Origin: a virus
Length of the DNA: 64,000 nucleotides
IMG/VR virus record: IMGVR_UViG_3300030329_002967
Span: 6,710-70,709 of that record
Direction: 5' to 3' (one strand)
The notes under the pieces are model-generated. The model was not told where the DNA came from. It searched no databases and was given only the letters and a program-made list of their open reading frames with translations. The position numbers and the translations under genes are program-made. Positions 38,103 through 50,746 of the stretch are shown piece after piece (within the stretch, counting starts at the first letter, position 1; each line of letters starts with the position of its first letter).

Positions 38103-38382
38103 ATAAATAACGGATGTTCAATGTAGGCATTTCAACCTTGTTTGGAGATCTCCTCCAACTCTATTTCCGTTATTTATAATTTTTTTAAAGGAAGCACCTT
38201 ATGCGCTAAGAGATCGGGCATTAGCACCCTCCAGCCCCTTAGACCGATTTGCAGGGTATTCCAGCGTATTTATAGATCCCCACCTAACAACTGGCCCTGC
38301 ACCCGTGTACGCAACTCTCATCCTGCGCTCTTATCAGTACAACCACACGAAGTCATCACATAAGATGCTTTCTTTAAAAAAA
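38103..38382 (-). ncRNA. candidate structured ncRNA pair (stem-closed ~200-nt and ~75-nt elements)
   Basis: ~23-bp closing stem 38180-38203/38359-38382 and perfect 12-bp stem 38103-38114/38166-38177; no minus-strand ORF; promoter-like TTGCAA..TATACT at 38430-38457. Confidence 0.6.
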
Positions 38383-38474
38383 TCATTATCTAAATTCAAA
38401 GAACATGGGATCTCTCCCACTAATAATTAAGTATATCACAGGATTTAAACTTTGCAAGCAAAAGTTATCACTAT

Positions 38475-39356
38475 CTACCCCCATACACACTCCTCAGGAA
38501 CCTTATCATCCCTCCACTTCAATAACCCATCAACACCTCTCACCGCATTAGGGTGTCTCATAGCACCAGACTCAAACAACTGCCAGCCCTTCACCTCTAT
38601 AACCCTTCCGATATATTTCCTATCCTCATTCCAGATGTCTTGCCTCTCCGCATCCGTGAAGCCACCTCCAACCCTTACCTTCTTAACTAACTCACCATCC
38701 ACATAAAGACCGCAAACCAACGCCCCCAGCTTCCCCACATTCCTTCCACCACCCTCTTCCACACCCATCACCACATAATCCATCGTAAACACCTGCTTCT
38801 TGCGGTAGATCACCGCCCCGACATAAGCCTCATCACTCCGCTTGTAAATAAGACCCTCTCCCCCACCATTCTCCACCTCACGCTCCCAAACCTCTTCAGC
38901 CTCCTCAATCGGAAACGTAGGCACTAGCTCAAACATAGACCCCTCAAACTCCACCTCCTCCAGCAACCCCCTTCTCTCATTCCACGGCAACGCATACGCC
39001 TCCCTCTCAATCCCCGTCCCATTATGCAAATCAATCTCCAGCACATCAAACACCATAACCTTTCCCAAACCACCCTCACCACTCGTAGCCCTCTGCGTCC
39101 CTACCAAATACTCCCCCACAATCACCCCACTATACTTACAGTCCAACCCCGACCGTCCCTCATACTTCAACTGTCCCTGCCTCGAATAAATCCGTACCTC
39201 TCCCTCCTCAAACACACACCTAGCCCACCAACCATCATACTTCACTTCCACCACATCCGCATACCTATCATACGCCTCCCCATGCTCCTCCACATTAACA
39301 TACTTCTGCACCCTCCCACTCAACCTCCCCTTCTCAACAACTCTCTCTTTTATCAT
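38475..39356 (-). CDS. ATP-dependent DNA ligase (start re-called at MIKERV)
   Basis: EVKYDG adenylation motif, YSRQG, GE, VFD, EGLIYK, D.VV.G..EG.GR..G.LGAL, VGGGFTD..R, MRHP, R.DK. Confidence 0.93.
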   Translation of the reverse strand: MIKERVVEKGRLSGRVQKYVNVEEHGEAYDRYADVVEVKYDGWWARCVFEEGEVRIYSRQGQLKYEGRSGLDCKYSGVIVGEYLVGTQRATSGEGGLGKVMVFDVLEIDLHNGTGIEREAYALPWNERRGLLEEVEFEGSMFELVPTFPIEEAEEVWEREVENGGGEGLIYKRSDEAYVGAVIYRKKQVFTMDYVVMGVEEGGGRNVGKLGALVCGLYVDGELVKKVRVGGGFTDAERQDIWNEDRKYIGRVIEVKGWQLFESGAMRHPNAVRGVDGLLKWRDDKVPEECVWG

Positions 39357-39362
39357 ACCCCC

Positions 39363-39391
39363 ACCATACCACACAAAAAAACATTTGTCAA
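39363..39391 (-). promoter_or_regulatory. sigma70-type promoter for the ligase
   Basis: TTGACA-17-TATGGT with ATG 6 nt downstream; near-identical to the AAA promoter. Confidence 0.7.
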
Positions 39392-39684
39392 TATTGAAAA
39401 TACGAAAATATGCAAAAATACCGAAAAGCACAAACCCCTTTTGCACATCGTTCAAATCTACACCCCTCTTACCCCCCCACCATGTGCCTCAAATGTGCCT
39501 CAAATGCCACTCATCACCCCCCATTTACACCCCATTTAGTTTTTAATTTTTAATTATTCATGTGGTGTATCCCGTCAATTTCGTTAGGAAAACGGTATAA
39601 TCGGTTTTGAGTTCGCGAATTTTGAAAAGCAAAAGAGCCGAGCAGTCACCTGCCCGACTCAATCGCTCTTTTATGTTTACCAGT

Positions 39685-40143
39685 TTAATCTTTAAGGTCA
39701 CTAGTGTTAACACTTAGTTTGATATCGTGCTTTACGTCGTGTAATTCCTGCTCAAGCTCGCAAACTTCGTTAGTTCTTTCTCTCAATCTATTAGTAAGTG
39801 ATTGAGTTTTTTCCTCAAGCTCTTTTACTTTTTTCTTAAGCTCACGAACCTCTGCCCATCCATTTTTTGCTGACTCTTTCCATAGCGCATTCATTGCGTT
39901 ATTGGATATTCTGATCTTAGCTTTTGCCTTTGGTCTTTCCTTTATAGCGATAAGCAAATCTAAGACTAGAATAAGCATCATGTGAAAGGCGAGGACTGTC
40001 ATATTGAAGAATAAGACGAGAACAGTCTGCTCCACTGTGATAAGCGAAATTATGAACGATGTGCAAACAAGCACAAGCGAAGTTAATGTTATTACCATTA
40101 CTGGCATTGTGAAGCTCTTAAGAATATTGATTAATTTTTTCAT
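39685..40143 (-). CDS. membrane-anchored coiled-coil protein
   Basis: Two TMs followed by coiled coil. Confidence 0.6.
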   Translation of the reverse strand: MKKLINILKSFTMPVMVITLTSLVLVCTSFIISLITVEQTVLVLFFNMTVLAFHMMLILVLDLLIAIKERPKAKAKIRISNNAMNALWKESAKNGWAEVRELKKKVKELEEKTQSLTNRLRERTNEVCELEQELHDVKHDIKLSVNTSDLKD

Positions 40144-40157
40144 TGTTTTGTTTAGTT

Positions 40158-40180
40158 GTGGGGAGGCTTTCGCCTCCCCT
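40158..40180. terminator. GC hairpin
   Basis: GGGGAGGC-TTTC-GCCTCCCC. Confidence 0.6.
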
Positions 40181-40187
40181 AATTTAA

Positions 40188-40397
40188 TTACTGGTTTGTA
40201 GCAAACTCGAATGCTGTATCTGGCTGAAAGTCAGGACTAATTGCTTGCCCTGTATACCCATCATCAAATCCGTCAGTCTCGAATAGCTCGACACCGTCAA
40301 GGCATTCAGTTGGTACATCGTCAAGCATTGCGTCAAACATTCTCTCATAATCGACCCCTTGAGGTTCGCCGTTATTGATATTATTTTCTGTAAACAT
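40188..40397 (-). CDS. small acidic protein
   Basis: D/E-rich ORF with a promoter directly upstream. Confidence 0.55.
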   Translation of the reverse strand: MFTENNINNGEPQGVDYERMFDAMLDDVPTECLDGVELFETDGFDDGYTGQAISPDFQPDTAFEFATNQ

Positions 40398-41018
40398 GAT
40401 AATATTTTAACCCATCCTTTAACCTTTGCAATAAAAAAGATACATTATTTCAATATATTTATCAGACATTATTATAATTACTATAATACAGCACCTCCTC
40501 CTATATTGTTGTTCATTTGAACACCCCTATATCTTTTTTACGGAATCTGTGTAAAAACACCACCAGTGTAAAGATGAACACCATGTAAACGTGAACACCT
40601 CGTAGATATTGATACCACATATAGCACTAACTACCTATTCGGTGAGCTTGCGATGGAACTGGAGGCGTGGTCATTCGGCGGGGCCACGATAACCCTGCAC
40701 CGCATAATCGCATATAGAGGTAGTAGCCAGCAAGGTAGTAGCGCAAGGTGATGTACCTTGGCGCATCACTTACTCAGTAAGGAATTGAACGGCGTTCAAA
40801 TATATGCCAGCCCCCCTGTAGCCCCTGTACATACAGATAGCTTAATCGCTAATATACTATATCGCCTAGGGGTAGCCTTGAACGTAGGCTAAGAATGTTA
40901 AGATAGGCTTAGATTAAAAAAAATAGATAAGGAGTAGCTTCCTCGGTAGGATTAGCCGTTGCTTATATGTAGGCTAAGATATTAATGATAAGGGTAGCTA
41001 CCGCACTAAGGTTAAACC

Positions 41019-41303
41019 TTAGGTAGAAGCGTAAGCTTCCTTATGTGCCTTAACTGCCTTCTTGACGGTATATGGATCTTCACATAGGGATACCCTAAAC
41101 TGTAGATCTAACATCTTGTTTACTTCAGTTAGGATAGCGTCGGCGTTGTCCTGCACCTCTACATATAGGTGTCGGGCCGAACCTTCGCCGCTACATGGGT
41201 GAGTCTCGTCGTAAACTCTCTTGCAGTCTTGCATGATGTTGATGCATACCTGTGCAATCTGTGCCATGCCCTCTAGTGATAAATTTTCAATTTTTTCAAT
41301 CAT
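41019..41303 (-). CDS. early hypothetical protein
   Basis: Promoter repeat at 41310-41338. Confidence 0.65.
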   Translation of the reverse strand: MIEKIENLSLEGMAQIAQVCINIMQDCKRVYDETHPCSGEGSARHLYVEVQDNADAILTEVNKMLDLQFRVSLCEDPYTVKKAVKAHKEAYAST

Positions 41304-41351
41304 GCTATTACTATAGCTTAGGTTAAGACCTTTGTCAAGTTATTTTATTTA

Positions 41352-41483
41352 AATAAAAGGTGTGAGGAGGGATTTACTTTTTACCCTCAACTTTCGGTTT
41401 CAACATATTGCAGTTTAACCTAATCGCACTCCGCTCTCTTCGCTCAGCCGGTTGGCCCCTGCTCAAGACACAGATACTTTATT
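41352..41483 (-). ncRNA. candidate structured ncRNA
   Basis: ORF-free, imperfect closing stem, internal GAGGG/CCCTC hairpin, 3' U-rich tract. Confidence 0.4.
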
Positions 41484-41504
41484 GCTGTTGTAACAATTAT
41501 TCAG

Positions 41505-41810
41505 TCACTCACGTTGAGGAGCTACCTCAAAATTCATATCATCACTTAGTTGCTGTAAGCATTCCATAACATCGGTAAGTGATGCATCTACTGCGTCTAC
41601 CGTCTTATGTACATTACTCACCCTAGCTAACAGTAACGCTATAGTTATCTTGCTTAATTGGTCACTTGGGATTAACTCATCACCGCACACACACCGTAAT
41701 GCATTAACTGAAACTTCCACGGTTCCATGTGGGGAAGGTAGTTTAAGTTCCCTCGGTACTAGGTCGTAATAACCATCGCCGCATTCTGTACAACAAATTC
41801 CTTCTTTCAT
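41505..41810 (-). CDS. zinc-ribbon protein (YgiT/MqsA-N-like)
   Basis: CTEC...V.V.A.RC.CG.E. Confidence 0.6.
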   Translation of the reverse strand: MKEGICCTECGDGYYDLVPRELKLPSPHGTVEVSVNALRCVCGDELIPSDQLSKITIALLLARVSNVHKTVDAVDASLTDVMECLQQLSDDMNFEVAPQRE

Positions 41811-41814
41811 CGTG

Positions 41815-41985
41815 CTATTTCTTAGCCCTAAGACCTATGTCATATCGCTGAGTGGTATGCTTATACCATACAGCCATACGCCGATCCTCTTCTTTCTGCT
41901 TTATCCTTTCCAACTCGTGAGCAGTAGGTTTGGTAGCTTTCAATACTCTATTCCTCTCAAGGATACTTTTTTTAAATGGACTCAT
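41815..41985 (-). CDS. 56-aa basic early protein (absent from track)
   Basis: ORF directly behind promoter 41995-42023. Confidence 0.5.
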   Translation of the reverse strand: MSPFKKSILERNRVLKATKPTAHELERIKQKEEDRRMAVWYKHTTQRYDIGLRAKK

Positions 41986-42036
41986 CGTACTATTACTATA
42001 GCATAGTATAAAACCTTTGTCAAATAAAAAAGGCTA

Positions 42037-42129
42037 CTATTTTCTTGGTTTAGATACCGCAAAGAACCTAAGCACTGCTACCATAATTAGTAGCCAAAAT
42101 ATTAAACCAACTATAACTAATGGACTCAT
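42037..42129 (-). CDS. 30-aa single-TM peptide (absent from track)
   Basis: MSPLVIVGLIFWLLIMVAVLRFFAVSKPRK. Confidence 0.5.
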   Translation of the reverse strand: MSPLVIVGLIFWLLIMVAVLRFFAVSKPRK

Positions 42130-42618
42130 TACTTACCTTCCAATTCATCGATTATTTCAATGAGTTCATCTACCTTATCTTCAAGCTTTCTAAACCTTGA
42201 CTCGATAGCGTCCAACACCTCTTGCCATGACCTCAATTCTGTACGGGGTATATCGTTATCACTCATTGCTTTTACTAATCTATTGGCTGACGGCGTAAGC
42301 GTTTCTCTAAGATGCGCTTATACTTCTTAGCTTTAGCGGCTGAATTACCTCCACGGTGAAACTGCCCGTCCTCTTGCTTTGAACCTTTCATTATTCTCTT
42401 CATCATGCTTAACTATAGCACAAGTTAAAACCTTTGTCAACTAATTATATCAACTAATATTCGATAGTATTGAAACCGTTACAAGTGCCATTGGCATAAT
42501 TATAAAGCCCACGACATTGAATATAAACTGGGGTCTGCGGTTAGGTTTACCTTCTTCGTAGTATACTCCTCCCATCTCTTCCCACCATAGGTACAGGCGG
42601 GTACTCCACTTAGTTTTT

Positions 42619-42819
42619 TTATTTTTCATTATTTATCGTGTCAGCAATAAGCTCATTAATTCTCGTAAGGTTACGCTCTACTAGCCTTGCTTGAATACTG
42701 GCTTCAAGCTCATCAAAGGGCTTACCGATCTTAGTTATCTGACCTATTGCGTTTAGGGCCAGTGCTGTATTAGCTTCTATGCGAGCTAGGAGTGCGTGTG
42801 TATCGGTTGATATTCTCAT
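42619..42819 (-). CDS. early hypothetical protein
   Basis: ORF in the early unit. Confidence 0.5.
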   Translation of the reverse strand: MRISTDTHALLARIEANTALALNAIGQITKIGKPFDELEASIQARLVERNLTRINELIADTINNEK

Positions 42820-42824
42820 AGTCC

Positions 42825-43046
42825 TTAGATTCGTGATTCGTTTGAGCAGAGCTTGTCGGCTGATCTTCTGGCCTCGTCCTCTGCTCTATGCCATTCGGCT
42901 TCCTGATCCAGTTCTTCCTGCTCTATCATTTCGATAATGTCAGTCTCGTGAATAAGGTGGCCTCCTGCATCCTCGTAATACTCACTCGCTGGGTGAGAGG
43001 TAATGTGGTTGGCTTCGATATAATCTTTAATTTTTTCTTCCATCAT
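42825..43046 (-). CDS. early acidic hypothetical protein
   Basis: ATGATG start 6 nt from the -10 box. Confidence 0.65.
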   Translation of the reverse strand: MMEEKIKDYIEANHITSHPASEYYEDAGGHLIHETDIIEMIEQEELDQEAEWHRAEDEARRSADKLCSNESRI

Positions 43047-43099
43047 GATCTTACTATAGCACAGTCTAAAACCTTTGTCAAATAAAAAAGGTATTTATT

Positions 43100-43288
43100 T
43101 TAACTAGGGTGGGTAAGGGTGGTAACGGTAATATCATTAACGTGCTGGCGATCCCAATCATCGAACCCATCCATTAGATTATCGACCTTAACATCAGCAT
43201 CATCACGGGTGTCGAATGGGCCGTATACGGTGGCCCCGCAATTATCCCAACTCACTACTACAACTAGTTTATCTCCTTGTTTCATCAT
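43100..43288 (-). CDS. early hypothetical protein
   Basis: ATGATG start 5 nt from the -10 box; YGPF motif. Confidence 0.65.
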   Translation of the reverse strand: MMKQGDKLVVVVSWDNCGATVYGPFDTRDDADVKVDNLMDGFDDWDRQHVNDITVTTLTHPS

Positions 43289-43322
43289 GCCCTATTATAT
43301 CACAGTCTAAAACCTTTGTCAA

Positions 43323-43649
43323 CTAAAAAGAACTACTATATTCAATATCTGGGAACTCAATACGATGCCTCAACTCATCTTGGCCTCTCATCGCATGAAG
43401 CGAGCTTTCGCCTCCTATATGAAACTCGATACGCTCATCATCCGAGAACTCCCTGTACTCTTTCCAATCGTAAATCGTAAAGAATGAGCCATCGCTGGTC
43501 AGCATATCCCATTCAACTGTTGTCTTATCACCACCTCCACGCCAGCACGGTTCACCGCACACTGCTTTAATCTGATTTACAGACGCTAATATCGTCTGCC
43601 CGTGAAAACTTGTACTAATGAACGGAGTATTTTTTGCTTGTTTCATCAT
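43323..43649 (-). CDS. conserved phage early protein
   Basis: G.P....GDK...EW, FTIYDWK, FHIGG motif common in phage hypotheticals. Confidence 0.7.
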   Translation of the reverse strand: MMKQAKNTPFISTSFHGQTILASVNQIKAVCGEPCWRGGGDKTTVEWDMLTSDGSFFTIYDWKEYREFSDDERIEFHIGGESSLHAMRGQDELRHRIEFPDIEYSSSF

Positions 43650-43717
43650 GCTTTAATATAGCACACCCTAAAACCTTTGTCAAATAAAAAGAGCATTTAT
43701 TTTATGCGTTATTTAAC

Positions 43718-43746
43718 TTGACAAAGGATATAACCTGTGTTATATT
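43718..43746 (+). promoter_or_regulatory. divergent plus-strand promoter with no downstream ORF
   Basis: TTGACA-17-TATATT, back-to-back with the copy at 43655-43683. Confidence 0.75.
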
Positions 43747-43810
43747 AAGAGGGCGGTTAGTGAGATGGGTTGCCATTGGGTACGCTGGCCTAGAGTTCCG
43801 CTTAAAGGTT

Positions 43811-43928
43811 AAAAAAAGCGGCTACCACGATTAGGAAAACACCTACTCCTTCTCAGCCTAGAACCCCCTCTTGATTGAGAAGTCGAATGCAGGTGAAACT
43901 ACTCCCTACCTATGAAATCGTGGTAGCC
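43811..43928 (-). ncRNA. candidate structured ncRNA / long-stem terminator
   Basis: Perfect 13-bp IR GGCTACCACGATT/AATCGTGGTAGCC with nested CACCT/AGGTG and CTTCTCA/TGAGAAG stems, then T7 on the minus strand. Confidence 0.55.
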
Positions 43929-44126
43929 AAAGTGATCCTACTCGTACCAAGTAACCTTGGCAAGTGGGAATTTTTCAAGCACCTTAGCTACGAAAGCTTC
44001 TGCTGATCTGCGCTTGTAGCCAAATGGTCTAATTCTAGTCTCAAGGCCCGGTAATGTGTACTCTATTTCAATCATGCCTTACTATAACACAGGTTAAAAC
44101 ATTTGTCAACTAAAAAGATATACTAT

Positions 44127-44381
44127 TTAAATCATAACTGCGTAACCCTCGATGGCATCCTCTTCTCGGTCGCGTACGCCTTCGGTATAAGCGTTGGCCC
44201 AAGTCTCCCAATTATCCCCATCGTCTACGATGCCGATATTGGTTGGCATATTCACCCCGTTCTCCGCATCGAGTGCGTAGTATCCGATGTCGTAAGCGAC
44301 TTGGGCGATGGTGTTTTCGGTGACGTTGCCATCCTTATCGACAACTTCCTCATACTTCTTTCTTAGGGTTTCGTTCATCAT
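44127..44381 (-). CDS. early acidic hypothetical protein
   Basis: ATGATG start behind a promoter. Confidence 0.65.
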   Translation of the reverse strand: MMNETLRKKYEEVVDKDGNVTENTIAQVAYDIGYYALDAENGVNMPTNIGIVDDGDNWETWANAYTEGVRDREEDAIEGYAVMI

Positions 44382-44517
44382 ACCTAACTATATCACAGTA
44401 TAAAACCTTTGTCAACTAAAAAAGGTATTTAAATTGATGCTATCCCCATTAGTCTCCTCCTTTCGGATTGTAGGCGTGGTCTGACGCCTCGTTGTTCGGT
44501 CTTTCGACCTACACTAA

Positions 44518-44662
44518 TGGCTGTCCGTAGCAGGACTCGAACCTGCGACCTCCCCTTATACCATTAACAATGACTAGTTGCTTAAAGCGATACCAGCGAG
44601 TAGTCACTCTCTACTGGCTCTACTTCTAGGCGGGTTGCTCTGCCAACTGAGCTATACGGACA
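44518..44662 (-). tRNA. atypical tRNA-like RNA with a ~75-nt insert replacing the anticodon loop
   Basis: (T)GTCCGTA/TACGGAC(A) acceptor stem, TAGCTCAGTTGGCAGAGC D arm, AGGTC variable loop, GCAGG-TTCGAGT-CCTGC T arm, 3' GCCA; no canonical anticodon stem-loop. Confidence 0.75.
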
Positions 44663-44676
44663 TCAATTTAATTCTC

Positions 44677-44782
44677 ACTGATGACTCACTCCCATATAGG
44701 GTTAACGAGGAGTAATTACTTCCTCCATCGAACCGCTTGCAATCGGTTTCAACTTCACCCTATAGGGGAGTGAATCATCAGT
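44677..44782 (-). ncRNA. candidate structured ncRNA
   Basis: 25-bp closing IR with 2 mismatches enclosing two small hairpins; downstream of ATG-less promoter 44829-44857. Confidence 0.6.
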
Positions 44783-44892
44783 AATTTACGGGATAAGCTA
44801 CTTACTTTTACTTCACCTCCCGTGATTAAATATAGCACACCCTAAAACCTTTGTCAACTAAAAAGATATATTTTTATTTTTTATTTTTTTCC

Positions 44893-44920
44893 TTGACATA
44901 ATAAATAGTTATGCTATATT
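44893..44920 (+). promoter_or_regulatory. divergent plus-strand promoter
   Basis: TTGACA-16-TATATT with TG extension. Confidence 0.55.
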
Positions 44921-45042
44921 AGCACTGTTCGACAAATAGCCACGGTTGATGTAACCGATTGAACGATGTGCAAAATGCTCAATTCCTCAAAGGAGGTGGG
45001 ATTAAAACTTTCCCTATTCGGTAACCCCTAAAAAAACCTGCG

Positions 45043-45318
45043 CTACCGAAGAGCGGATAAAGGGGTCGGCTTAAACCATAAATCCCTCTCTATGCGAGCG
45101 GATGCCGCCTCAAAGGTAGACAAAGAGAAATAGCCTAGCTCACTCACATAGCCGTCCACAAGGCCAAAAAAGGTATCCTCACCATCAAACTCAGTTGCAT
45201 ACCAAGTGTAATTCCCAAAAGGGGTAAAGTACTTTACTATCGCCACTGGATCTTCCTCATGCTCAGTTGATCCAAGCTTAGGTAATTTACGTCGTAACTC
45301 TTTAGTTAATAATTTCAT
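45043..45318 (-). CDS. DUF2958-family protein
   Basis: LP.L...E......VK.FTP....TWY.TE.D....FFGLV.G...ELGYFSL, IERDL.F.P. Confidence 0.85.
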   Translation of the reverse strand: MKLLTKELRRKLPKLGSTEHEEDPVAIVKYFTPFGNYTWYATEFDGEDTFFGLVDGYVSELGYFSLSTFEAASARIERDLWFKPTPLSALR

Positions 45319-45343
45319 AATTAGTCTTAGTATAGCGGTACAA

Positions 45344-45499
45344 CTAAAAGCTTACCTTGCCCCTGCACTTAGCCTTACTCCTAGCCTTACGCTTATCTGT
45401 AATCCTACGGGTTCCGCTTACCATAAGCCAAGCGATAAACTTATCCCCACGCTTAACTCTGGCATGGGACACTGACTTTCTTTTTTTCGTTTTCATCAT
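45344..45499 (-). CDS. 51-aa highly basic protein (absent from track)
   Basis: MMKTKKRKSVSHARVKRGDKFIAWLMVSGTRRITDKRKARSKAKCRGKVSF; behind promoter 45505-45533. Confidence 0.6.
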   Translation of the reverse strand: MMKTKKRKSVSHARVKRGDKFIAWLMVSGTRRITDKRKARSKAKCRGKVSF

Positions 45500-45714
45500 A
45501 CCTAACTATAGCACATCCTAAAACCTTTGTCAAATAAAAAGACATACTTTATTGGTGATGTCTTTTAAGGCATATCCTGCGCCACTTCCTACGGGTAGTA
45601 GCAACATCCATGTCACAACTCTGTAGCAGACGCTTCCAACTCTCCCAGTTAGGTCTAGGCACGGGAGTCTCCTCCCATGCCCTTTTGCGTTCTTCGGGTG
45701 TAGTCACTTTCATA

Positions 45715-46125
45715 TTAATCTATTTCGTTACTGTAAGGACGCTTAGCGTCAACTACGTTCTTCCAACCATGACAATCCGCAACAAAGCCTTCGGACTCCA
45801 GAAACCCAACGTGCGAGCGAGCTTGCTCAACTGAGGTATCCATCGCATCAGCCAACTCATCAAAGTTCTCCCTACCGTTCAACACGATAGGACACTCGGA
45901 CGAGAAGATATACCTATTAAACGCCGCTCCTGCCCAATCAAGTCTACATCCCGTAAAGTCCCTAGGCACTCTCTGCTTACCCATAGCCGTCTGTACGCAC
46001 TCTTTAAGCCTAATGAACGAAGGACGAACCCCAAAATCTTCGGCGACTCTCCTACGGATCTCTGCTCCCTCCTTCAACTCGGCTGGGGTTGCCAGCCTTC
46101 CTTTATTTTTCTCTTTTTGCATCAT
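45715..46125 (-). CDS. early hypothetical protein
   Basis: ATGATG start behind a promoter. Confidence 0.65.
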   Translation of the reverse strand: MMQKEKNKGRLATPAELKEGAEIRRRVAEDFGVRPSFIRLKECVQTAMGKQRVPRDFTGCRLDWAGAAFNRYIFSSECPIVLNGRENFDELADAMDTSVEQARSHVGFLESEGFVADCHGWKNVVDAKRPYSNEID

Positions 46126-46184
46126 GTAGGTACATTAGCACAATAAAAAGATCTTTGCAAGTTTTATTTTCAATTATTTACAAA

Positions 46185-46214
46185 TAAAAAAAGGGAGGCT
46201 TTCGCCCCCCTTTA
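46185..46214 (-). terminator. Rho-independent terminator
   Basis: GGGGGGC-GAAA-GCCTCCC + T7 on the minus strand. Confidence 0.75.
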
Positions 46215-46217
46215 TTG

Positions 46218-46280
46218 TTATTTTTTGTTAATCTCGTCGTAGACAAGAATAGCCAGCAGTATTAATGCAAGTATTGTCAT
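46218..46280 (-). CDS. 20-aa hydrophobic peptide, copy 1
   Basis: MTILALILLAILVYDEINKK; paralogue at 50606-50668. Confidence 0.75.
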   Translation of the reverse strand: MTILALILLAILVYDEINKK

Positions 46281-46287
46281 AAATAAT

Positions 46288-46650
46288 TTAAACTACTACC
46301 ACCTCTACACGATCTTCCATTTCAGGAAAATCGCCCTTAATCTTTCCTGCAAGATAAGCTCTAGCTCTCTCCTTACCTACGTTGATCCACTCCCGTGAGT
46401 CAACAGGGCGGCCATTCACCTTAGGCAAGAAGTGTTCTTGGTGGAATCCAATCCCGGTTATCCCGTTAACTCGCTCCCTTGTGGTAGGGGTATTCCATCC
46501 TGCCAGCGTAGCAAACACTTCGCCATTTTCACGTTTGATAATCTTGTTACCAAACAGCCATACGCTTTCACCGTCCGTGTAAGTGTTATCCACTCTTAAC
46601 TCTCTGCCCGACTCAAATGCGGATTTAATTCGTTGTGTTATTTTTCTCAT
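46288..46650 (-). CDS. conserved phage early protein
   Basis: MRKIT..I..AF, NT, L.GN.I, GW.T.TT.ER.N motif. Confidence 0.7.
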   Translation of the reverse strand: MRKITQRIKSAFESGRELRVDNTYTDGESVWLFGNKIIKRENGEVFATLAGWNTPTTRERVNGITGIGFHQEHFLPKVNGRPVDSREWINVGKERARAYLAGKIKGDFPEMEDRVEVVVV

Positions 46651-46684
46651 GCTTTACTATATCACAGGTTAAAACCTTTGTCAA

Positions 46685-46855
46685 CTAAAAAGATGTAACT
46701 TCATCAATATAATTAACATTAAAATCATTATCTTCGAGTAGCTTTCTATCAGAGTAGTTCCTGACTATCTCTTCTGCTTCTTCTTTGTCCTTTGCTTCTA
46801 CTTCGTAGCAATTCATTATGCTAACGCCAACGTAGTATTTTTTCTTCTTACTCAT
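46685..46855 (-). CDS. small hypothetical protein (EVEA...EEA motif)
   Basis: AAGGAG Shine-Dalgarno before MSKKKKY. Confidence 0.55.
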   Translation of the reverse strand: MSKKKKYYVGVSIMNCYEVEAKDKEEAEEIVRNYSDRKLLEDNDFNVNYIDEVTSF

Positions 46856-46859
46856 CTCC

Positions 46860-47351
46860 TTATCTTCCATCTCTTTTATCCAGATCCTCTGGTTTCAGAT
46901 ACTCTGCTAGGTGTTGGCAATCCTCATCGGGGTAGTCATATACTTCTACGTTACCTTTTGAATCATGCTTATAGTTCCCGTCTTCATCCTTTAGTGCGTA
47001 GGATAAATCCCAAACTACTACTTCGTATTTTTTCTTCTTACTCATCTCCTTATCTTCCCAATCTATTGAATGAGCATAAACAAGTAACCCTTCCAAAGCC
47101 TGTGAAGGATCTGTAAGCTTTAATACAATATTGCACCCTTCATCTATAAGCTCCTCATTCTCAGAATTATCATAATCAAGTACCGCCTCTAAGGTTGGCG
47201 TATCTCTAACTATAACTGCTCTGTGATGCTGAAAAGAACGCTTACGAATTGCTCCAACGTCTCTAACCTTTAATGGATATACGAGAGTAGCTTCGTCGTA
47301 AGCTCTTGTGCAGGACTTCCTTATCTGTCTATACTTATTAGTGTTTTTCAT
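46860..47351 (-). CDS. early hypothetical protein, apparently two fused ORFs
   Basis: Internal SD + MSKKKKY identical to the start of the next gene. Confidence 0.55.
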   Translation of the reverse strand: MKNTNKYRQIRKSCTRAYDEATLVYPLKVRDVGAIRKRSFQHHRAVIVRDTPTLEAVLDYDNSENEELIDEGCNIVLKLTDPSQALEGLLVYAHSIDWEDKEMSKKKKYEVVVWDLSYALKDEDGNYKHDSKGNVEVYDYPDEDCQHLAEYLKPEDLDKRDGR

Positions 47352-47400
47352 CGTGCTTTACTATAACACAGGTTAAAACCTTTGTCAACTAAAAAGGCTA

Positions 47401-47982
47401 CTAATATTGATCTCCTTCCCTAGCGTATACTTCAACTCGCCTCTGAATTTCATCAAAGATTAAGTTAATAGTCTTCCGGCTAGTCTCCGTTCCGTAGTAC
47501 CCACTCCCATGCGTTCCTTCTTTGATTCTATTAACCCTCAGAGCCACTAACTTAAGTAACTCTTCACTGGTACAGGTTTCAAAAAAATCAGTATAAACAT
47601 CCCAATTCCATTCAACTCCATAAAGATCATTATCGGGTTTAGTAACAGGCTCTTCCTTATTCTTAGGAGCAGAGCAGAGCCGAGTAGACGCATACTCGCT
47701 TATATAAGGATTCATCCACTCCTTAACAAAATAATTAAGGGATCTTGTTCCTATAACTCCTTCATTAATAGGATGCCTACCTTTTCTATCATACCTATAT
47801 TGGATAGAAATGGAATTAGGTTTACCTGTCGCTTCCTCCACTGCCTTAATCGCATCCTCACCTACCCAATTCTGCTGAAGATAATGTTGGCGAAATCTTC
47901 CAACTTTACTGCAAACGCCATCAATTACTTCAGATGGGACGTTGCTCTCAATAAACTCTTTAATTGTTTCTATATTCATCAT
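47401..47982 (-). CDS. early hypothetical protein
   Basis: ATGATG start behind a promoter. Confidence 0.7.
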   Translation of the reverse strand: MMNIETIKEFIESNVPSEVIDGVCSKVGRFRQHYLQQNWVGEDAIKAVEEATGKPNSISIQYRYDRKGRHPINEGVIGTRSLNYFVKEWMNPYISEYASTRLCSAPKNKEEPVTKPDNDLYGVEWNWDVYTDFFETCTSEELLKLVALRVNRIKEGTHGSGYYGTETSRKTINLIFDEIQRRVEVYAREGDQY

Positions 47983-48037
47983 GCTTTTAATATAACACAG
48001 GTTAAAACCTTTGTCAAGTTATTTTATATAAGTTTTT

Positions 48038-48388
48038 TTAAGCTATCGCCTTCCTTCCTAACCCTTCCATATTTAGCTCTGGCCGCATCTCCTTAATCAT
48101 TGCAAGCTCACAGGCATGGGCTTCTTTCTTGCCTCGTATGATAGTCACTACTTCCCGTGTAAAGGCATCTGGCCCCGACTCTCTGATAGCATCAGCTATA
48201 CGAGTAACCTTACCGTACTGAAGTGCATTCCGTGTATGGGCCTTGAACCTATTCTTCACTGAACGAGTGAATGCCCTGCCTTCCGCTACTACCACACCTA
48301 TATACTGATCTCCTGTAGTATTGCAGGTAAGTTTATAAATCACATAGTTCCTATCGGAGCGTTTCTTGCGTGGTTTGTTTTTCATCAT
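48038..48388 (-). CDS. GIY-YIG-like nuclease-domain protein
   Basis: YVIYKLT...TG..YIG, R...H, E...I.....LN. Confidence 0.75.
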   Translation of the reverse strand: MMKNKPRKKRSDRNYVIYKLTCNTTGDQYIGVVVAEGRAFTRSVKNRFKAHTRNALQYGKVTRIADAIRESGPDAFTREVVTIIRGKKEAHACELAMIKEMRPELNMEGLGRKAIA

Positions 48389-48444
48389 GCCTACAGTATA
48401 CACAATAAAAGAACTTTGTCAAATAAAAAGATTGAACGACGTTC

Positions 48445-48625
48445 AAAAAAAATAGGGTCGGGAGAAACTCTTATATGCTGACTGTACGCCAACTAGTAAC
48501 TCCCGACCCCGGTATGATGAAAAAAGCTTGTAACAGTAACCAACCAAAGTTTTCGAGAATTTAAGATCCTGTTGTGGATCGCTCTATCACTTTGTAACTC
48601 CCTTGGTAGAGAGTGGTTACTGTTA
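48445..48625 (-). ncRNA. two tandem stem-closed candidate ncRNA elements
   Basis: IRs GGGTCGGGAG/CTCCCGACCC (48455-48509, followed by a T tract on minus) and TAACAGTAACCA/TGGTTACTGTTA (48531-48625). Confidence 0.5.
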
Positions 48626-48944
48626 AAATTATCTCCAATCGCCTATATGAACCACGTACTTATTCATATCAGGTGCTTCAATCTCAAAGGAAAGCTTCTC
48701 CATCTTCAGCCAGTAGATTAACTTAACCAACTGCTCTGTCTCGTATAATGTAATTGTGTCTCCCATCATGCTTTTACTATATCACAGGTTAAAACCTTTG
48801 TCAAATAAAAAGTGTTGGATTTTTGATAACGTGGATTTACCATTTATGGTGGGCTTACCATCGTTACTCTCAGACTCGCTGGTTTTCAACAGCAAGAGGT
48901 TATTTCTGCGTTTAGAAATTACCCAACTACCTTTGTACAAAATG

Positions 48945-49127
48945 TTAACAATAATCATTATGAGTAAATATATCTTTCCATAGTTTTACAACTTCCTTAT
49001 CACTCATCTTATTATAAACGAAATCTAACAGGAGATCGACTATCTCACCTTCATGCATAGTGCGAGCTTCCCTTTGAGCTAATTCAAAACGCTTATTCTT
49101 TAACTCAATCATCTCTTCTTCTTTCAT
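48945..49127 (-). CDS. hypothetical protein
   Basis: ORF in the early unit. Confidence 0.5.
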   Translation of the reverse strand: MKEEEMIELKNKRFELAQREARTMHEGEIVDLLLDFVYNKMSDKEVVKLWKDIFTHNDYC

Positions 49128-49132
49128 AACTT

Positions 49133-49381
49133 CTAACGATACTTACTGTTAAACTGTAACTCCCAACCCTTCGGGCTAACTCCCGTGACCGCAAACTCCC
49201 TGTCATCCGCACTAAGCGACCTTAGCGCATCTTGAGCTAAAGCCCCTTGGTTGTACCGAAACAACTCCTGCGCTGGAATAGCGACGCTATACTCCTCTCC
49301 CGTAACGACACACGGCCCCGTAAAAGTGTAAACGTGTGGGTCGTAGGACTCTTCGTATTTGCAGTTTTGTAGGTATGCCAT
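49133..49381 (-). CDS. conserved small phage protein
   Basis: G.L.QDA...LSADDREF..TG..P..W motif. Confidence 0.7.
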   Translation of the reverse strand: MAYLQNCKYEESYDPHVYTFTGPCVVTGEEYSVAIPAQELFRYNQGALAQDALRSLSADDREFAVTGVSPKGWELQFNSKYR

Positions 49382-49583
49382 AATTATTCGTAGCTGTAAG
49401 GGATGCTGTCATCTGAATAAACTTCAGATAGTTGTTTTGCGATTAGTGCGACCCTCTCGGTTTCATTCGCATCATCATTCAATATCTCCCATAGCTCTCG
49501 TGGATCTGACTCCCCGAAAACTTCCCGTGGGTCTTGTTGTATCAATTCTTTATTTTTCATCATGCCTTACTATAACACAGGAA

Positions 49584-49850
49584 TTATTCTTTGTCAATTA
49601 AAATATATAACTTTTTTAATAACCTTCTGTACCGAGCATCCAGTACTATAACTACCCCTAAGATAAGAATGTTCAGCACCTTGATAGGCAGGAGTTCCAT
49701 GCCTTTTTCGGAATCAACTAAATACAGCATAACCCACGCAAATGTGCCTACCAGCACTGCCCATAGCAATAACTCCTTTATTCTATACAGTCTGCAAAGC
49801 CTACTATGTAGGCGAGTAGACTCGCTAAATTGGTATTCGGTTTTCTTCAT
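49584..49850 (-). CDS. two-TM membrane protein
   Basis: Two hydrophobic helices. Confidence 0.55.
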   Translation of the reverse strand: MKKTEYQFSESTRLHSRLCRLYRIKELLLWAVLVGTFAWVMLYLVDSEKGMELLPIKVLNILILGVVIVLDARYRRLLKKLYILIDKE

Positions 49851-50254
49851 CTCTTCGATCTGCTGGTGTAATATTCGTTAAGCTCCTTCTGGGTTTCGGT
49901 AAATGAATCCCATGACTTACTCAGGTGGGCTGAGGTAACTCGCTCGTTATGCTCATCTTCACCTGCGTAGAGCGGGATGGCGCAAGTCTTCCCGTCTTCG
50001 TCACATGGCCTGTAGTTATCCACATGATCCCATAAGTCTACGTTTGGTATCCACCAAAGGTTAGTCTTTCGGGTCTGCTCTAGGTAGGCATCTGAGCCAG
50101 TCTTGGTGTCCTTAGAGTCGAAGCCTAAGCCGTAAATTCTTGCCAGCCTTCCCATAGCCTCAAATGGGTTTCGGCCAGTGCAGTAGCCCATACAACTCGT
50201 AGCGAAGTACGTGCCTTTCTGGGATGTTAAATATAAGTCTAAGTTTTTCATCAT
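49847..50254 (-). CDS. early hypothetical protein
   Basis: ATGATG start behind a promoter. Confidence 0.65.
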   Translation of the reverse strand: MMKNLDLYLTSQKGTYFATSCMGYCTGRNPFEAMGRLARIYGLGFDSKDTKTGSDAYLEQTRKTNLWWIPNVDLWDHVDNYRPCDEDGKTCAIPLYAGEDEHNERVTSAHLSKSWDSFTETQKELNEYYTSRSKR

Positions 50255-50304
50255 GCTATTACTATATCACAGGTTAAATCCTTTGTCAAGTTATTTATGT
50301 AAGT

Positions 50305-50562
50305 TTATATTACGTGGCCCTCATAGAGATAAAGATCGTCTGGGAAATCACCTCCGCACGTTACCCATGTAATCCCGGTAACCCTGTAATCGTACTGTTC
50401 GCACTCACCGAATACGTCATAGTCCTCATACCAAGGTGCAGGGTATTCGCCTCCTACCTCTGGCTTCAGTTCGGCTACAATCCCTGAGAACTCTTCGCCC
50501 TTCCATATGAAGCGTATTCGCTGGCCTACGCTTACTGCTGTACTGCACTGTTGTTTCATCAT
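50305..50562 (-). CDS. early hypothetical protein
   Basis: ATGATG start behind a promoter. Confidence 0.65.
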   Translation of the reverse strand: MMKQQCSTAVSVGQRIRFIWKGEEFSGIVAELKPEVGGEYPAPWYEDYDVFGECEQYDYRVTGITWVTCGGDFPDDLYLYEGHVI

Positions 50563-50605
50563 ATTATACTATAACACAGGTCAAAACCTTTGTCAAGTTA
50601 TTTAT

Positions 50606-50668: not shown

Positions 50669-50746
50669 GCCCTAATATAGCACATAAAAAACCTTTGTCA
50701 AGTAAATTATATATTTAATTTTTTTAATTTTTATACGATATTTTGC

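What the first reader, a model, noticed from the sequence alone, without database searches (positions are those of the whole stretch)
38103..48951. Family of ~10 dispersed stem-closed ncRNA candidates, four sharing a GUUGAAA motif
Seen: many ORF-free gaps are closed by 8-25 bp inverted repeats enclosing 35-160 nt of further structure, too large for ordinary terminators (38103-38177, 38180-38382, 41352-41483, 43820-43928, 44446-44520, 44677-44782, 48455-48509, 48531-48625, weaker 48822-48951). Four carry minus-strand GTTGAAA (38130-38136, 41398-41404, 44747-44753, 48884-48890). The 41.4-kb and 44.7-kb elements share GTTGAAACCG followed by a GAGG...AGTAA.T.CTCCTC hairpin. Known: CRISPR repeat 3' handles often end (A/G)TTGAAA(C); phages encode RNA anti-CRISPRs and antitoxin-mimic RNAs; T7 and SPO1 early regions use long stems as RNase III sites. 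Inference: an arsenal of early decoy/sponge RNAs, with plain RNase III processing stems as the alternative.
Basis: partly seen in the sequence, partly recalled or inferred. Interest (0 to 1): 0.75.

Follow-up and report, generated by a model that had tools for sequence, protein, structure and literature searches.

The report
Mixed phage RNA structures, not one family
The hairpin-closed elements in this marine phage are a mixed set (large terminators, one known manA RNA, and a non-coding unit with a tRNA-shaped RNA fused to a conserved, uncatalogued tail RNA), not one family of decoy RNAs.

Summary
The stems are real. Seven of 9 elements fold far better than shuffles (z -4.1 to -9.0), and perfect inverted repeats are enriched (8 vs 1.9 expected).

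They are not one family. The elements share only 7-11-nt words. GTTGAAA is at background in the window (7 seen, 7-8 expected). It is lost in both relatives that could be checked.

The region is a promoter-dense cassette array: 19 near-identical sigma-70 promoters, 18 of them with an ATG 5-9 nt after the -10 box, so the mRNAs look leaderless. This resembles the PeSL cassettes of T4-type phages.

- **Terminator-like:** elements at 38.1, 43.8 and 48.5 kb (two there) are stem-closed structures followed by U tracts.
- **manA:** 41357-41530 is a manA RNA (Rfam, 56.8 bits, cut-off 55.2).
- **Non-coding cassette, 44857-44444:** a 106-nt covarying stem, a 140-nt tRNA-shaped RNA whose anticodon loop is replaced by about 70 nt, and a 78-nt four-helix tail.
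- **Orphan or unsupported:** the 203-nt element is an orphan; the 48.9-kb element is unsupported.

The tail belongs to a family absent from Rfam 15. It occurs on 10 IMG/VR loci, usually right after tRNA-shaped genes, and in a few Patescibacteria genomes, with strong covariation.

The parts
41310..50701 (-). Array of 19 near-identical sigma-70-type promoters (TTGACAaaggtttta...TGnTATAGT). In 18 of them an ATG lies 5-9 nt after the -10 hexamer, so the small ORFs look leaderless.
38103..38177 (-). 75-nt element: 12-bp closing stem, two inner hairpins, then a U-rich tail. Terminator-like end of the non-coding leader from the promoter at 38457-38430.
   Evidence: z -4.7. Tail has 6 U in the first 10 nt. 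An RNA contig of run X7 covers 38022-38206. No Rfam family.
38180..38382 (-). 203-nt orphan structured RNA with a closing duplex of about 28 bp and four inner hairpins. It lies just downstream of the ligase gene and the promoter at 38457.
   Evidence: MFE -74.8 vs -55.4 for shuffles, z -4.5. Arms of 28 nt, 89% complementary. No Rfam match. No blastn relative in phage records.
41357..41530 (-). manA RNA (Rfam RF01745). It overlaps the last 26 nt of ORF 41810-41505 and ends 18 nt before the next promoter.
   Evidence: 56.8 bits vs gathering score 55.2, full model 1-192. A diverged copy in run X6 has one compensatory pair and most changes at positions unpaired in the single-sequence MFE fold.
42033..42095 (-). 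Stem-closed structure (8-bp closing stem) followed by U6.
43820..43928 (-). 109-nt long hairpin with a 13-bp perfect base, followed by GCUUUUUUU. Terminator of the 45-aa ORF cassette.
   Evidence: z -5.7. Starts 9 nt after the stop codon; 7 U in the first 10 nt of the tail.
44829..44857 (-). Promoter of the only cassette without an ATG start: the non-coding unit.
   Evidence: 11 of 12 consensus matches. No ATG after the -10 box.
44677..44782 (-). 106-nt RNA: a 17+8-bp closing duplex enclosing two hairpins, 15 nt upstream of the tRNA-shaped gene. Likely a processing or protective stem.
   Evidence: z -9.0. Against L004, of 41 pairs: 31 same, 3 one-sided changes that keep pairing, 2 compensatory, 5 broken. 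Not manA by Rfam.
44522..44661 (-). 140-nt tRNA-shaped RNA with canonical acceptor, D and T arms. About 76 nt stand where the 9-nt anticodon loop region should be.
   Evidence: Rfam tRNA 46.3 bits with a 76-nt insert. Default ARAGORN finds nothing. With introns allowed it calls Ile(TAT) with a 67-nt insert after U33 and a poor anticodon stem. One change in L004.
44444..44521 (-). 78-nt four-helix tail RNA that starts directly after the discriminator base. Member of a conserved family absent from Rfam 15.
   Evidence: Model R1 scores it 96 bits, the only copy in the window. Covariation. Relatives.
46190..46213 (-). Canonical intrinsic terminator, included for comparison.
48455..48509 (-). 55-nt element with a 10-bp G+C-rich closing stem followed by U8. 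Strong terminator.
   Evidence: z -7.0. 9 U in the first 10 nt of the tail.
48531..48625 (-). 95-nt element: 12-bp closing stem, two inner hairpins, and U6 starting 5 nt downstream. First of two tandem 3'-end structures after a 46-aa ORF.
   Evidence: z -5.8. Starts 3 nt after the stop codon.
48822..48951 (-). The weakest listed element; not supported as a structure.
   Evidence: z -1.2. Overlapped by a 58-aa ORF, 48958-48782.

Best explanation
The stretch is the hyperplastic, promoter-dense gene-cassette region of an uncultured marine tailed phage. The stem-closed elements are the RNA-level punctuation and cargo of those cassettes, and they have several unrelated origins.

1. **Large terminators.** Each cassette starts at a strong sigma-70-type promoter. 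That promoter apparently makes a leaderless mRNA (inferred from spacing). Several cassettes end in an unusually large, often branched hairpin followed by a U tract. Such a hairpin would terminate transcription and protect the 3' end (inferred from anatomy): 38103-38177, 42033-42095, 43820-43928, 48455-48509, 48531-48625.
2. **manA.** One cassette ends in a manA RNA (shown by the Rfam score).
3. **A purely non-coding cassette (44857 to 44444).** It holds a long covarying duplex, a tRNA-shaped RNA whose anticodon loop is replaced by a roughly 70-nt domain, and a conserved four-helix tail RNA. I propose that the tRNA-shaped module is a processing and stability handle. Host RNase P and the 3' tRNA-processing nuclease would cut at its ends and release three stable RNAs. 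The tail's invariant junction would be the functional site, binding a conserved partner that is not yet known (inferred).
4. **An orphan.** 38180-38382 is an orphan 203-nt structured RNA in a promoter-proximal leader.
5. **Shuffling.** The repeated promoters serve as recombination points that reorder the cassettes (shown by one relative with a different cassette order).
For: **Architecture.**
- 19 minus-strand promoter matches at 11 or 12 of 12 consensus positions, as a repeat family of up to 17 copies.
- An ATG lies 5-9 nt after the -10 box in 18 of the 19.
- Relative L004 places the non-coding cassette between homologues of 46233-45503 and 45542-45373, a different order. Contigs of DNA runs X4 and X5 replace or delete blocks at cassette borders.

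**Terminator reading.** U-rich tails with 5-9 U in the first 10 nt follow 38103, 42033, 43820, 48455 and 48531. Four of them (42033, 43820, 48455, 48531) sit between a stop codon and the next promoter; 38103 ends the non-coding leader.

**RNA level.** All 7 well-folded elements are more stable on the transcribed strand.

**manA.**

**Non-coding cassette.**
- Its promoter is not followed by an ATG.
- In L004 the tRNA-shaped gene plus tail show 1 change in about 220 nt, while the upstream stem has 12 substitutions plus 3 inserted bases in 106 nt (mainly in the closing stem and first inner hairpin; it keeps its closing duplex) and the flanks are 88-93% identical.

**Tail family.**
- 10 of 11 IMG/VR loci that hold the 17-mer score 45.6-92 bits with model R1, including one not in the seed.
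- On the model-fitted alignment 92.1% of cells are paired, against 77.2% in shuffles (0 of 500 reach it) and 36-43% when partners are slid. 11 of 21 pairs change on both sides.
- In 9 of the 10 loci the tail directly follows a T arm and acceptor strand.
- Stand-alone copies with their own promoter-like site and terminator occur in two Patescibacteria MAG contigs. 3 of 121 sampled genomes of that phylum have a match.

**Not one family.**
Against: - No transcript ends were seen. The runs are kept only as contigs, and no RNA contig lay on 44094-45506. Termination, leaderless starts and RNase P or 3'-nuclease processing are therefore all inferred.
- The branched structures have 35-85 nt between their closing arms, far beyond ordinary terminators. 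The T tract in front of each -35 box also occurs where no hairpin exists, so some U tails may belong to the promoter module.
- GTTGAAA is nominally concentrated in the elements (8 of 1000 shuffles), which I leave unexplained.
- The tRNA-shaped gene could be a true tRNA with an intron. Removing 67 nt after U33 gives a canonical loop, CU-UAU-AA. AUA makes up 39% of Ile codons. L013 gives a clean Thr(UGU) after removal of an insert at the same position.
- Only one diverged relative (L004) covers any of the other elements. Elements at 38103, 38180, 43820, 48455 and 48531 have no comparative support at all.
Confidence: 0.72

Rival explanations
1. One reading: the elements are an arsenal of early decoy or sponge RNAs. 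Four of them would present a CRISPR-repeat-like GUUGAAA(C) handle to titrate host defence proteins.
For: GTTGAAA is in 4 of the 9 elements, and only 8 of 1000 shuffles match that. All four copies are on the transcribed strand. Two elements share GTTGAAACCGA.
Against: - The window-wide count equals expectation (7 vs 7.3-9.6).
- The motif lies in different structural contexts in the single-sequence folds: unpaired in the folds of 38103 and 48822, in the 3' strand of a stem in manA, and in a stem in 44677.
- It is broken in L004 and changed at two positions in the X6 manA variant, so 0 of 2 testable orthologues keep it.
- The manA consensus at these positions reads differently.
- No extended repeat-like similarity exists among the four contexts.
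- No CRISPR repeat library was available here to test mimicry directly.
Confidence: 0.04
2. The stems are RNase III processing sites, as in the T7 early region. They would cut polycistronic or read-through RNA into stable units rather than terminate transcription.
For: Two elements have duplexes long enough for RNase III: about 25 bp in 44677-44782 and about 28 bp in 38180-38382. The closing stem of 44677-44782 covaries while its interior drifts. It sits 15 nt upstream of the tRNA-shaped gene (coordinates), as rRNA and tRNA processing stalks do (recalled).
Against: Nearly every gene has its own promoter, so there is little polycistronic RNA to cut. Most other closing stems are 8-13 bp, and several are followed by U tracts. 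No cleavage data exist.
Confidence: 0.15
3. Sub-claim on 44522-44661: it is a working tRNA-Ile(UAU) gene interrupted by a 67-nt intron of an unknown, non-group-I kind. The intron would be removed to supply decoding of AUA codons.
For: - ARAGORN with introns allowed gives a canonical CU-UAU-AA loop.
- AUA is 39% of Ile codons in long ORFs, 23 per 1000 codons.
- L013 yields Thr(UGU) with a perfect 5-bp anticodon stem and an insert at the same 33/34 position.
- The single L004 change lies inside the putative intron.
- Lak megaphage tRNA genes carry unexplained introns (PMC6784885; abstract and the passages shown).
Against: - After removal the anticodon stem has C.A and G.G mismatches and an extra base after the D stem.
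- Among relatives the called anticodons and insert positions differ (32, 34, 36, 40). One lacks U33, one lacks a purine at position 37, and two get no call at all.
- 67 nt is too short for a group I core, and no ribozyme or intron family matches.
- An uninterrupted tRNA with similar halves in runs X4 and X5 has a different anticodon stem and a CUU anticodon, so it is not the intron-less allele.
- In the L010/L015 pair, by eye one part of the insert is identical and one hairpin differs in its stem letters with the same loop, like a functional domain.
Confidence: 0.2
4. The inverted repeats act at the DNA level, as recombination or replication signals of the cassette system, and RNA folding is incidental.
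For: Cassette order differs in L004, and blocks are replaced at borders in X4 and X5. One joint falls at 38187, inside an arm of the 203-nt element. PeSL elements of T4-type phages do mediate such shuffling (PMC2839356; abstract and section 13 read).
Against: All 7 well-folded elements fold better on the transcribed strand, which implies G.U pairs that are mismatches in DNA. L004 changes create G.U pairs in the closing stem. The recombination-prone repeats are the promoters, not the stems, and the stems share no sequence.
Confidence: 0.07

Closest known systems
PeSL (promoter-early stem-loop) cassettes of T4-type phages (Arbiol et al. 2010, PMC2839356; Comeau et al. 2014, PMC4122927)
   Same: Many copies of a strong sigma-70-like promoter with an A+T-rich upstream tract lie next to stem-loops that act as terminators. 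They flank small ORFan genes in a hyperplastic region, and the cassette order is shuffled between relatives.
   Different: - Here the phage is not T4-like by its markers: family A DNA polymerase, tape-measure protein, HK97-type capsid family.
- The stem-loops are not part of the conserved repeat. They are separate from the promoter, differ from one another and are much larger.
- The ORFs start at the transcription start instead of after a Shine-Dalgarno site.
manA RNA motif (Rfam RF01745; Weinberg et al. 2010, PMC2864571)
   Same: Full-length match above the gathering score, with the conserved sequence blocks present. It occurs in a marine phage.
   Different: The published copies are mostly in potential 5' UTRs (passage read). 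This one lies at the 3' end of a cassette and is separated from the next ORF by that ORF's own promoter. The score is only 1.6 bits above the cut-off. The additional files that list manA contexts could not be seen.
Phage T4 stable RNAs: species 1 (rnaC, 139 nt) and species 2 (rnaD, 119 nt)
   Same: Small non-coding RNAs co-located with phage tRNA genes. rnaC carries a tRNA-type T arm and terminal stem around a large non-tRNA middle. Their function is unknown.
   Different: I saw no sequence likeness by eye (no comparison was run). The RNA here keeps a complete canonical D arm, T arm and acceptor stem, and is fused to a conserved tail that T4 lacks.
'Enigmatic' introns in tRNA genes of Lak megaphages (Devoto et al. 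2019, PMC6784885)
   Same: Phage tRNA genes are interrupted near the anticodon by conserved inserts that are not group I introns (passages read).
   Different: There, alleles with and without the insert align. Here the only uninterrupted look-alike has a different anticodon arm. No tail RNA appears in the abstract and passages I read.
RNase III sites of the T7 early region
   Same: Long stems between early genes. This comparison is recalled, not tested here.
   Different: T7 early RNA comes from a few promoters and needs cutting. Here nearly every gene has its own promoter, and several stems carry U tracts.

Membership tests
manA RNA (RF01745) | Covariance-model score at or above the curated gathering score over the whole model | tested here: met
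   56.8 bits vs 55.2, model positions 1-192 of 192, E 7.5e-12. The second element, 44677-44782, gives no manA match even at E up to 10.
manA RNA (RF01745) | Position in the 5' UTR of a gene (the usual published context) | tested here: not met
   It overlaps the end of ORF 41810-41505. A promoter at 41338-41310 lies between it and the next, leaderless-looking ORF.
PeSL-type regulatory cassettes | Repeated sigma-70 consensus promoter with an A+T-rich upstream tract, immediately upstream of ORFans | tested here: met
   19 sites at 11 or 12 of 12 matches; repeat families D1-D6. Nine of ten ORFs tested have no Pfam or PHROG family.
PeSL-type regulatory cassettes | A stem-loop that is part of the conserved motif, within or next to the promoter | tested here: not met
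   The stems lie 9-136 nt upstream of the -35 box and are absent from many promoters (my reading of the ORF ends and promoter positions). They share no sequence.
PeSL-type regulatory cassettes | Cassette shuffling between relatives at the repeats | tested here: met
   L004 has a different cassette order, with junctions at promoters. Block replacements appear in runs X4 and X5. This rests on one relative plus contig joints.
CRISPR-repeat mimic / RNA anti-CRISPR | Extended likeness to a CRISPR repeat, conserved among relatives | tested here: not met
   Only a 7-mer is shared. It is lost in L004 and in the X6 manA variant. Comparison with a CRISPR repeat library was not possible with these tools.
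tRNA (RF00005) | Cloverleaf with a 7-nt anticodon loop on a 5-bp stem | tested here: not met
   Acceptor, D and T arms score 46.3 bits, but 76 nt stand in place of 9. Default ARAGORN finds no tRNA. After removal of the insert the stem has 2 mismatches in 5 pairs.
Group I intron in a tRNA anticodon loop | Catalytic core (P3-P9), about 200 nt or more | tested here: not met
   The insert is 67 nt. No Rfam intron or ribozyme match at E up to 10. The insert alone folds no better than shuffles, z -0.4.
   The window copy scores 96 bits. 10 IMG/VR loci score 45.6-92 bits. No Rfam match at the window copy or at two genome copies.
Intrinsic (Rho-independent) terminator | G+C-rich hairpin with a short loop, directly followed by a U tract | tested here: inconclusive
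   U tracts are present after 5 stem-closed elements. However, 35-85 nt lie between the closing arms, and the consensus scan lists none of them as such. It does list 46213-46190 and 39660-39635.

The most novel reading that the evidence does not exclude
The 78-nt tail at 44444-44521 represents a new, widespread class of small RNA. Its roughly 30-nt junction core is invariant in the eight family sequences aligned, and the 17-mer inside it is exact in two Patescibacteria genome copies. The class binds a universally conserved cellular machine in tRNA processing or translation. Phages deliver it in bulk by fusing it to a tRNA-shaped scaffold that hijacks RNase P and the 3' tRNA nuclease for its release. 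This would make the 44.4-44.9-kb cassette a dedicated host-takeover RNA operon within a leaderless, promoter-per-gene early programme.
Probability: 0.25. Interest if true: 0.8.

Novelty: new variant of a known kind. Interest (0 to 1): 0.55.

Why it matters
- **For annotation.** A string of impressive hairpins in a phage early region should not be read as one RNA family. Here they resolve into terminator-type cassette ends, a known motif and one real surprise.
- **The surprise.** A tRNA-shaped RNA is fused to a strongly conserved four-helix tail. The tail recurs on other marine phage contigs and stands alone in a few Patescibacteria genomes, yet it is absent from Rfam 15. Its invariant junction suggests a specific, conserved binding partner. 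A phage RNA that exploits tRNA processing to make another small RNA would be a new way for phages to act on their hosts.
- **The cassette array.** One strong promoter per leaderless small gene, with the order shuffled in a relative, extends the PeSL idea beyond T4-type phages. It offers a compact natural system for studying leaderless translation.

Tried and rejected
**Searches for relatives**
- No relative in phage GenBank records by megablast of 38000-49000.
- Distant blastn of the non-coding unit gave only generic tRNA halves. The leader 38095-38430 gave chance hits. manA gave none.
- IMG/VR searches with the ligase, the terminase, the promoter pattern, part of the tRNA insert, and a T-loop-plus-hairpin pattern found nothing.
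- The one metagenome scan returned 6 stretches. L002, L003 and L007 are the same phage. L006 is identical over 43461-46686, so it is uninformative. L005 gave no blastn match to the window at the length cut-off I printed and was left aside. Only L004 helped.
- L009 and L016 were chance pattern matches. Of the 44 genome contigs matches to the 17-mer, 41 were chance or marginal (L030, 20.3 bits, E 0.0075, was not counted) and one (L038) is the phage itself.

**Structure and family tests**
It is blind to the long closing stems and also flags many coding windows, so I did not use it.
- RNAalifold on the MAFFT alignment missed the closing helix because of misalignment, so I used a model-fitted alignment instead.
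- Targeted Rfam searches of the elements gave only weak generic hits: microRNA hairpins, STnc240, and YrlA at 15.8 bits.
- A hammerhead reading of the CUGAUGA in 44677-44782 was dropped because L004 does not keep it.
- An archaeal host with bulge-helix-bulge splicing was considered. I dropped it because the -35, the 17-bp spacer and the extended -10 box are all bacterial consensus.

**Sequencing runs (contigs only)**
- No RNA contig lay on 44094-45506. This says nothing about expression or splicing.
- The RNA library could contain DNA.

**Calls that failed**
- A mis-specified 'of' argument was corrected.

Full report
**Setting.** The window is bases 6710-70709 of a 70.7-kb linear IMG/VR virus record. 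All long ORFs lie on the minus strand. Pfam marks a family A DNA polymerase, a tape-measure protein, an HK97-type capsid family, a large terminase and an ATP-dependent ligase. Megablast finds no relative in 50,697 phage records. Runs that hold the stretch are marine metagenomes.

**Cassette architecture.** Between 41.3 and 50.7 kb the consensus scan finds 19 minus-strand promoter sites with 11 or 12 of 12 matches (TTGACA, 16-17 bp, usually TGnTATAGT) and three plus-strand copies placed back to back with them. They form a repeat family of up to 17 copies. In 18 of the 19, an ATG (usually ATGATG) begins 5-9 nt after the -10 hexamer and opens the first ORF of the unit. The mRNAs are therefore probably leaderless. 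By eye, the 18 nt upstream of internal starts printed also show no obvious Shine-Dalgarno sequence. Nine of ten small ORFs tested have no Pfam or PHROG family. One weakly resembles Kyanoviridae Gp96. This layout matters for the finding: with no 5' leaders, almost every ORF-free gap lies between a stop codon and the next promoter.

**Check of the observation.** On the minus strand, 7 of the 9 listed elements fold much better than 100 dinucleotide shuffles:

| Element | z-score |
|---|---|
| 38103-38177 | -4.7 |
| 38180-38382 | -4.5 |
| 43820-43928 | -5.7 |
| 44446-44520 | -4.1 |
| 44677-44782 | -9.0 |
| 48455-48509 | -7.0 |
| 48531-48625 | -5.8 |
| 41352-41483 as listed | -0.3 |
| 41357-41530 (full manA hit) | -1.2 |
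| 48822-48951 | -1.2 |

All seven well-folded elements are more stable on the minus strand than on the plus strand. That points to G.U pairs and so to selection on RNA. Perfect inverted repeats of 10 bp or more with 20-220 nt between the arms number 8 in 38-49 kb, against 1.94 +/- 1.28 in shuffles. Two of the eight are promoter or start motifs. The structures are therefore real and more than chance.

**Not a family, and the motif.** All-against-all blastn of the elements and the other gaps gives only 7-11-nt words. The best is GTTGAAACCGA, shared by manA and 44677-44782. GTTGAAA occurs 7 times on the minus strand of the window against 7.3-9.6 expected, and never on the plus strand against 2.4-3.0 expected. 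Within the 980 nt of the nine elements it is the only 7-mer found in three or more of them (it is in four). Only 8 of 1000 shuffles reach four. There is a local concentration that I cannot fully explain, but the motif is not conserved. In L004 the copy in the 44.7-kb element is split by a 2-nt insertion. In a diverged manA copy in run X6 two of its bases differ. The manA consensus also reads differently at these positions.

**What the elements are.**

- **Terminator-like ends.** Five stem-closed structures are followed by U-rich tails. The count is U in the first 10 nt of the tail:
  - 38103-38177: 6 U
  - 42033-42095: 8 U
  - 43820-43928: 7 U, as GCUUUUUUU
  - 48455-48509: 9 U
  - 48531-48625: 5 U, starting 5 nt downstream

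  The elements at 43820 and 48531 begin 9 and 3 nt after a stop codon. I read these as oversized, partly branched terminators and 3'-end protectors. This is inferred from anatomy. The standard scan recognises only the ordinary terminators at 46213-46190 and 39660-39635.
- **manA.** 41357-41530 is a manA RNA, at 56.8 bits against a gathering score of 55.2 over the whole model. A variant at depth 60.7 in run X6 differs at 17 positions plus indels. One pair changes on both sides (C-G to U-A), two changes keep pairing, two break a pair, and eleven lie at positions unpaired in the single-sequence MFE fold. Unlike the published 5'-UTR contexts (PMC2864571, passage read; additional files not visible), it sits at the end of a cassette, 18 nt before the next promoter.
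- **Orphan RNA.** 38180-38382 is a 203-nt structure downstream of the promoter at 38457-38430, which is not followed by an ATG. It has no Rfam or blastn relative. RNA-library contigs of run X7 cover 38022-38206 at depth 24 and the ligase gene at depth 29.5, against 0-6.5 (bin means) over most of the region. DNA carry-over cannot be excluded.
- **Unsupported.** 48822-48951 is not supported as a structure and may be coding.

**The non-coding cassette.** The promoter at 44857-44829 is the one promoter in the 41.3-50.7-kb array that lacks an ATG. It is followed by three elements.

1. *44677-44782.* The closing duplex of 17+8 bp is kept in L004. Of 41 pairs, 31 are the same, 3 change on one side and stay paired, 2 are compensatory and 5 are broken. 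The interior, including GTTGAAA, drifts. Rfam does not call it manA.
2. *44522-44661.* The Rfam tRNA model scores 46.3 bits, with canonical acceptor, D and T arms and 76 nt where 9 belong.
   - Default ARAGORN finds no tRNA.
   - With introns allowed it proposes Ile(UAU) with a 67-nt insert after U33, but the resulting anticodon stem has C.A and G.G mismatches.
   - The insert alone is not unusually stable, z -0.4.
   - No intron or ribozyme family matches.
3. *44444-44521.* This begins right after the discriminator base and folds into four helices.

In L004 the tRNA-shaped gene plus tail show one change, while the flanks are 88-93% identical.

**The tail is a conserved family.**

I treated it as a lead and tested it here.
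- *IMG/VR loci.* Two pattern scans of IMG/VR gave 10 loci (7 distinct sequences) plus 2 chance matches.
- *Model search.* A covariance model built from 8 sequences scores the window copy at 96 bits and finds no second copy in the window (the next hit is 14.3 bits, E 0.29). It scores L014, which was not in the seed, at 45.6 bits.
- *Pair counts.* On the model-fitted alignment, 92.1% of cells pair, against 77.2% in shuffles (0 of 500) and 36-43% when partners are slid. 11 of 21 pairs change on both sides. Helices 1 and 4 covary, and helices 2 and 3 are almost invariant in sequence. That alignment leans towards the model, and its 10 distinct rows include the one weak row.
- *Context in phage contigs.* In 9 of the 10 loci the tail directly follows a T arm and acceptor strand. 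L012 sits inside a cluster of 7 tRNA-clan matches (6 tRNA, 1 tRNA-Sec model).
- *Run X6.* Loose ends of an X6 contig show the same core behind a different tRNA 3' end. The third hairpin there reads CCCC-GCAA-GGGG instead of UCC-GAAA-GGA.
- *Prokaryote genomes.* In genome contigs, 3 of 44 matches to the 17-mer are real.
  - One is this phage itself, in a MAG labelled uncultured Nisaea sp.. That is at most a weak host hint.
  - Two are in Paceibacterota and Saccharibacteria MAGs. There the RNA stands alone between a promoter-like site and a terminator.
  - 3 of 121 sampled genomes of that phylum match.
  - Rfam 15 has no family at these copies.

**Scaffold or intron?**

- *For a real, spliced tRNA.* Removal of the insert gives a canonical CU-UAU-AA loop. 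AUA is 39% of Ile codons. L013 gives a clean Thr(UGU) with an insert at the same position. There is a published precedent for unexplained phage tRNA introns (PMC6784885).
- *Against.* The anticodon stem is poor. The calls among relatives are inconsistent. The insert is too small for a group I core. A similar uninterrupted tRNA in runs X4 and X5 has a different anticodon arm, with CUU. In the L010/L015 pair, by eye one part of the insert is identical and one hairpin differs in its stem letters with the same loop, like a functional domain.

I put the non-decoding scaffold at about 0.55 and splicing at about 0.2. T4 rnaC shows that phages do keep tRNA-like stable RNAs of unknown role beside tRNA genes.

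**Comparison and novelty.** The cassette array is closest to the PeSL cassettes of T4-type phages, which pair strong sigma-70 promoters with terminator stem-loops and shuffle by recombination (PMC2839356, abstract and section 13; PMC4122927, abstract). It differs in phage type, in its leaderless starts, and in stems that are not part of the repeat. manA is a known family. I found no description of the tRNA-shaped RNA with tail in Rfam 15 or in the listings of searches, which were not aimed at it specifically. This scan had already noted it on other DNA.

**Verdict.** The decoy-family reading is not supported. The region holds ordinary punctuation plus one unusual RNA operon.

Noticed in passing
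41310-50701, also near 1919-1975, 60800-60865, 61930-61980: About 20 near-identical sigma-70 promoters, each followed within 5-9 nt by ATG (mostly ATGATG). This looks like a promoter-per-gene programme of leaderless mRNAs, and the internal genes also show no obvious Shine-Dalgarno sequence. Further copies of the promoter repeat lie outside the region.
   Followed up: partly
43718-43746(+), 44893-44920(+), 50747-50775(+): Three plus-strand copies of the promoter sit back to back with minus-strand promoters. They would drive short antisense or divergent RNAs, one of them running into the 43820-43928 hairpin. No plus-strand ORF of note follows.
   Followed up: no
50860-50960 and 45005-45040: Iteron-like repeats (GGTTTTTT, a few bases, then CCGAATAG or GG). 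Three copies lie in an ORF-poor stretch downstream of the terminase gene and a fourth in the 44858-45042 gap. Possibly a replication or packaging signal.
   Followed up: no
37365-37379, 40785-40799, 48432-48446, about 51566-51580: A 15-bp palindrome, TTGAACGnCGTTCAA (one copy imperfect), recurs in gaps, once directly between a terminator U tract and a -35 box. It looks like an operator.
   Followed up: no
An RNA-library contig of run X7 covers 40583-40775. No Rfam match.
   Followed up: partly
46823-46877 and 47013-47067: A 55-nt direct repeat (84% identical). Contigs of runs X4 and X5, and locus L038, carry the 190-bp deletion between the copies.
   Followed up: partly
38187 to 42614: Contigs in DNA runs X4 and X5 join these two places with 37 other letters between them. 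Some strains therefore may lack the block that holds the 203-nt RNA, the ligase and manA. The likeness cut-off was 85, so another organism cannot be excluded.
   Followed up: no
44720-44735; L010 and L015 inserts: Hairpin loops carry the 6-nt palindrome UUGCAA: the first inner hairpin of 44677-44782 (kept in L004) and a covarying hairpin in the L010/L015 inserts. The palindrome ACUAGU lies in the window's tRNA insert. These could allow loop-loop pairing between copies. No statistics were done.
   Followed up: no
L059:7596-7676, L055:6724-6799: The stand-alone tail-type RNAs in two Patescibacteria MAGs lie just downstream of genes whose C-terminal ends look, by eye, like a tRNA-binding domain and an RNase R S1 domain. 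This was not tested with a profile search.
   Followed up: no
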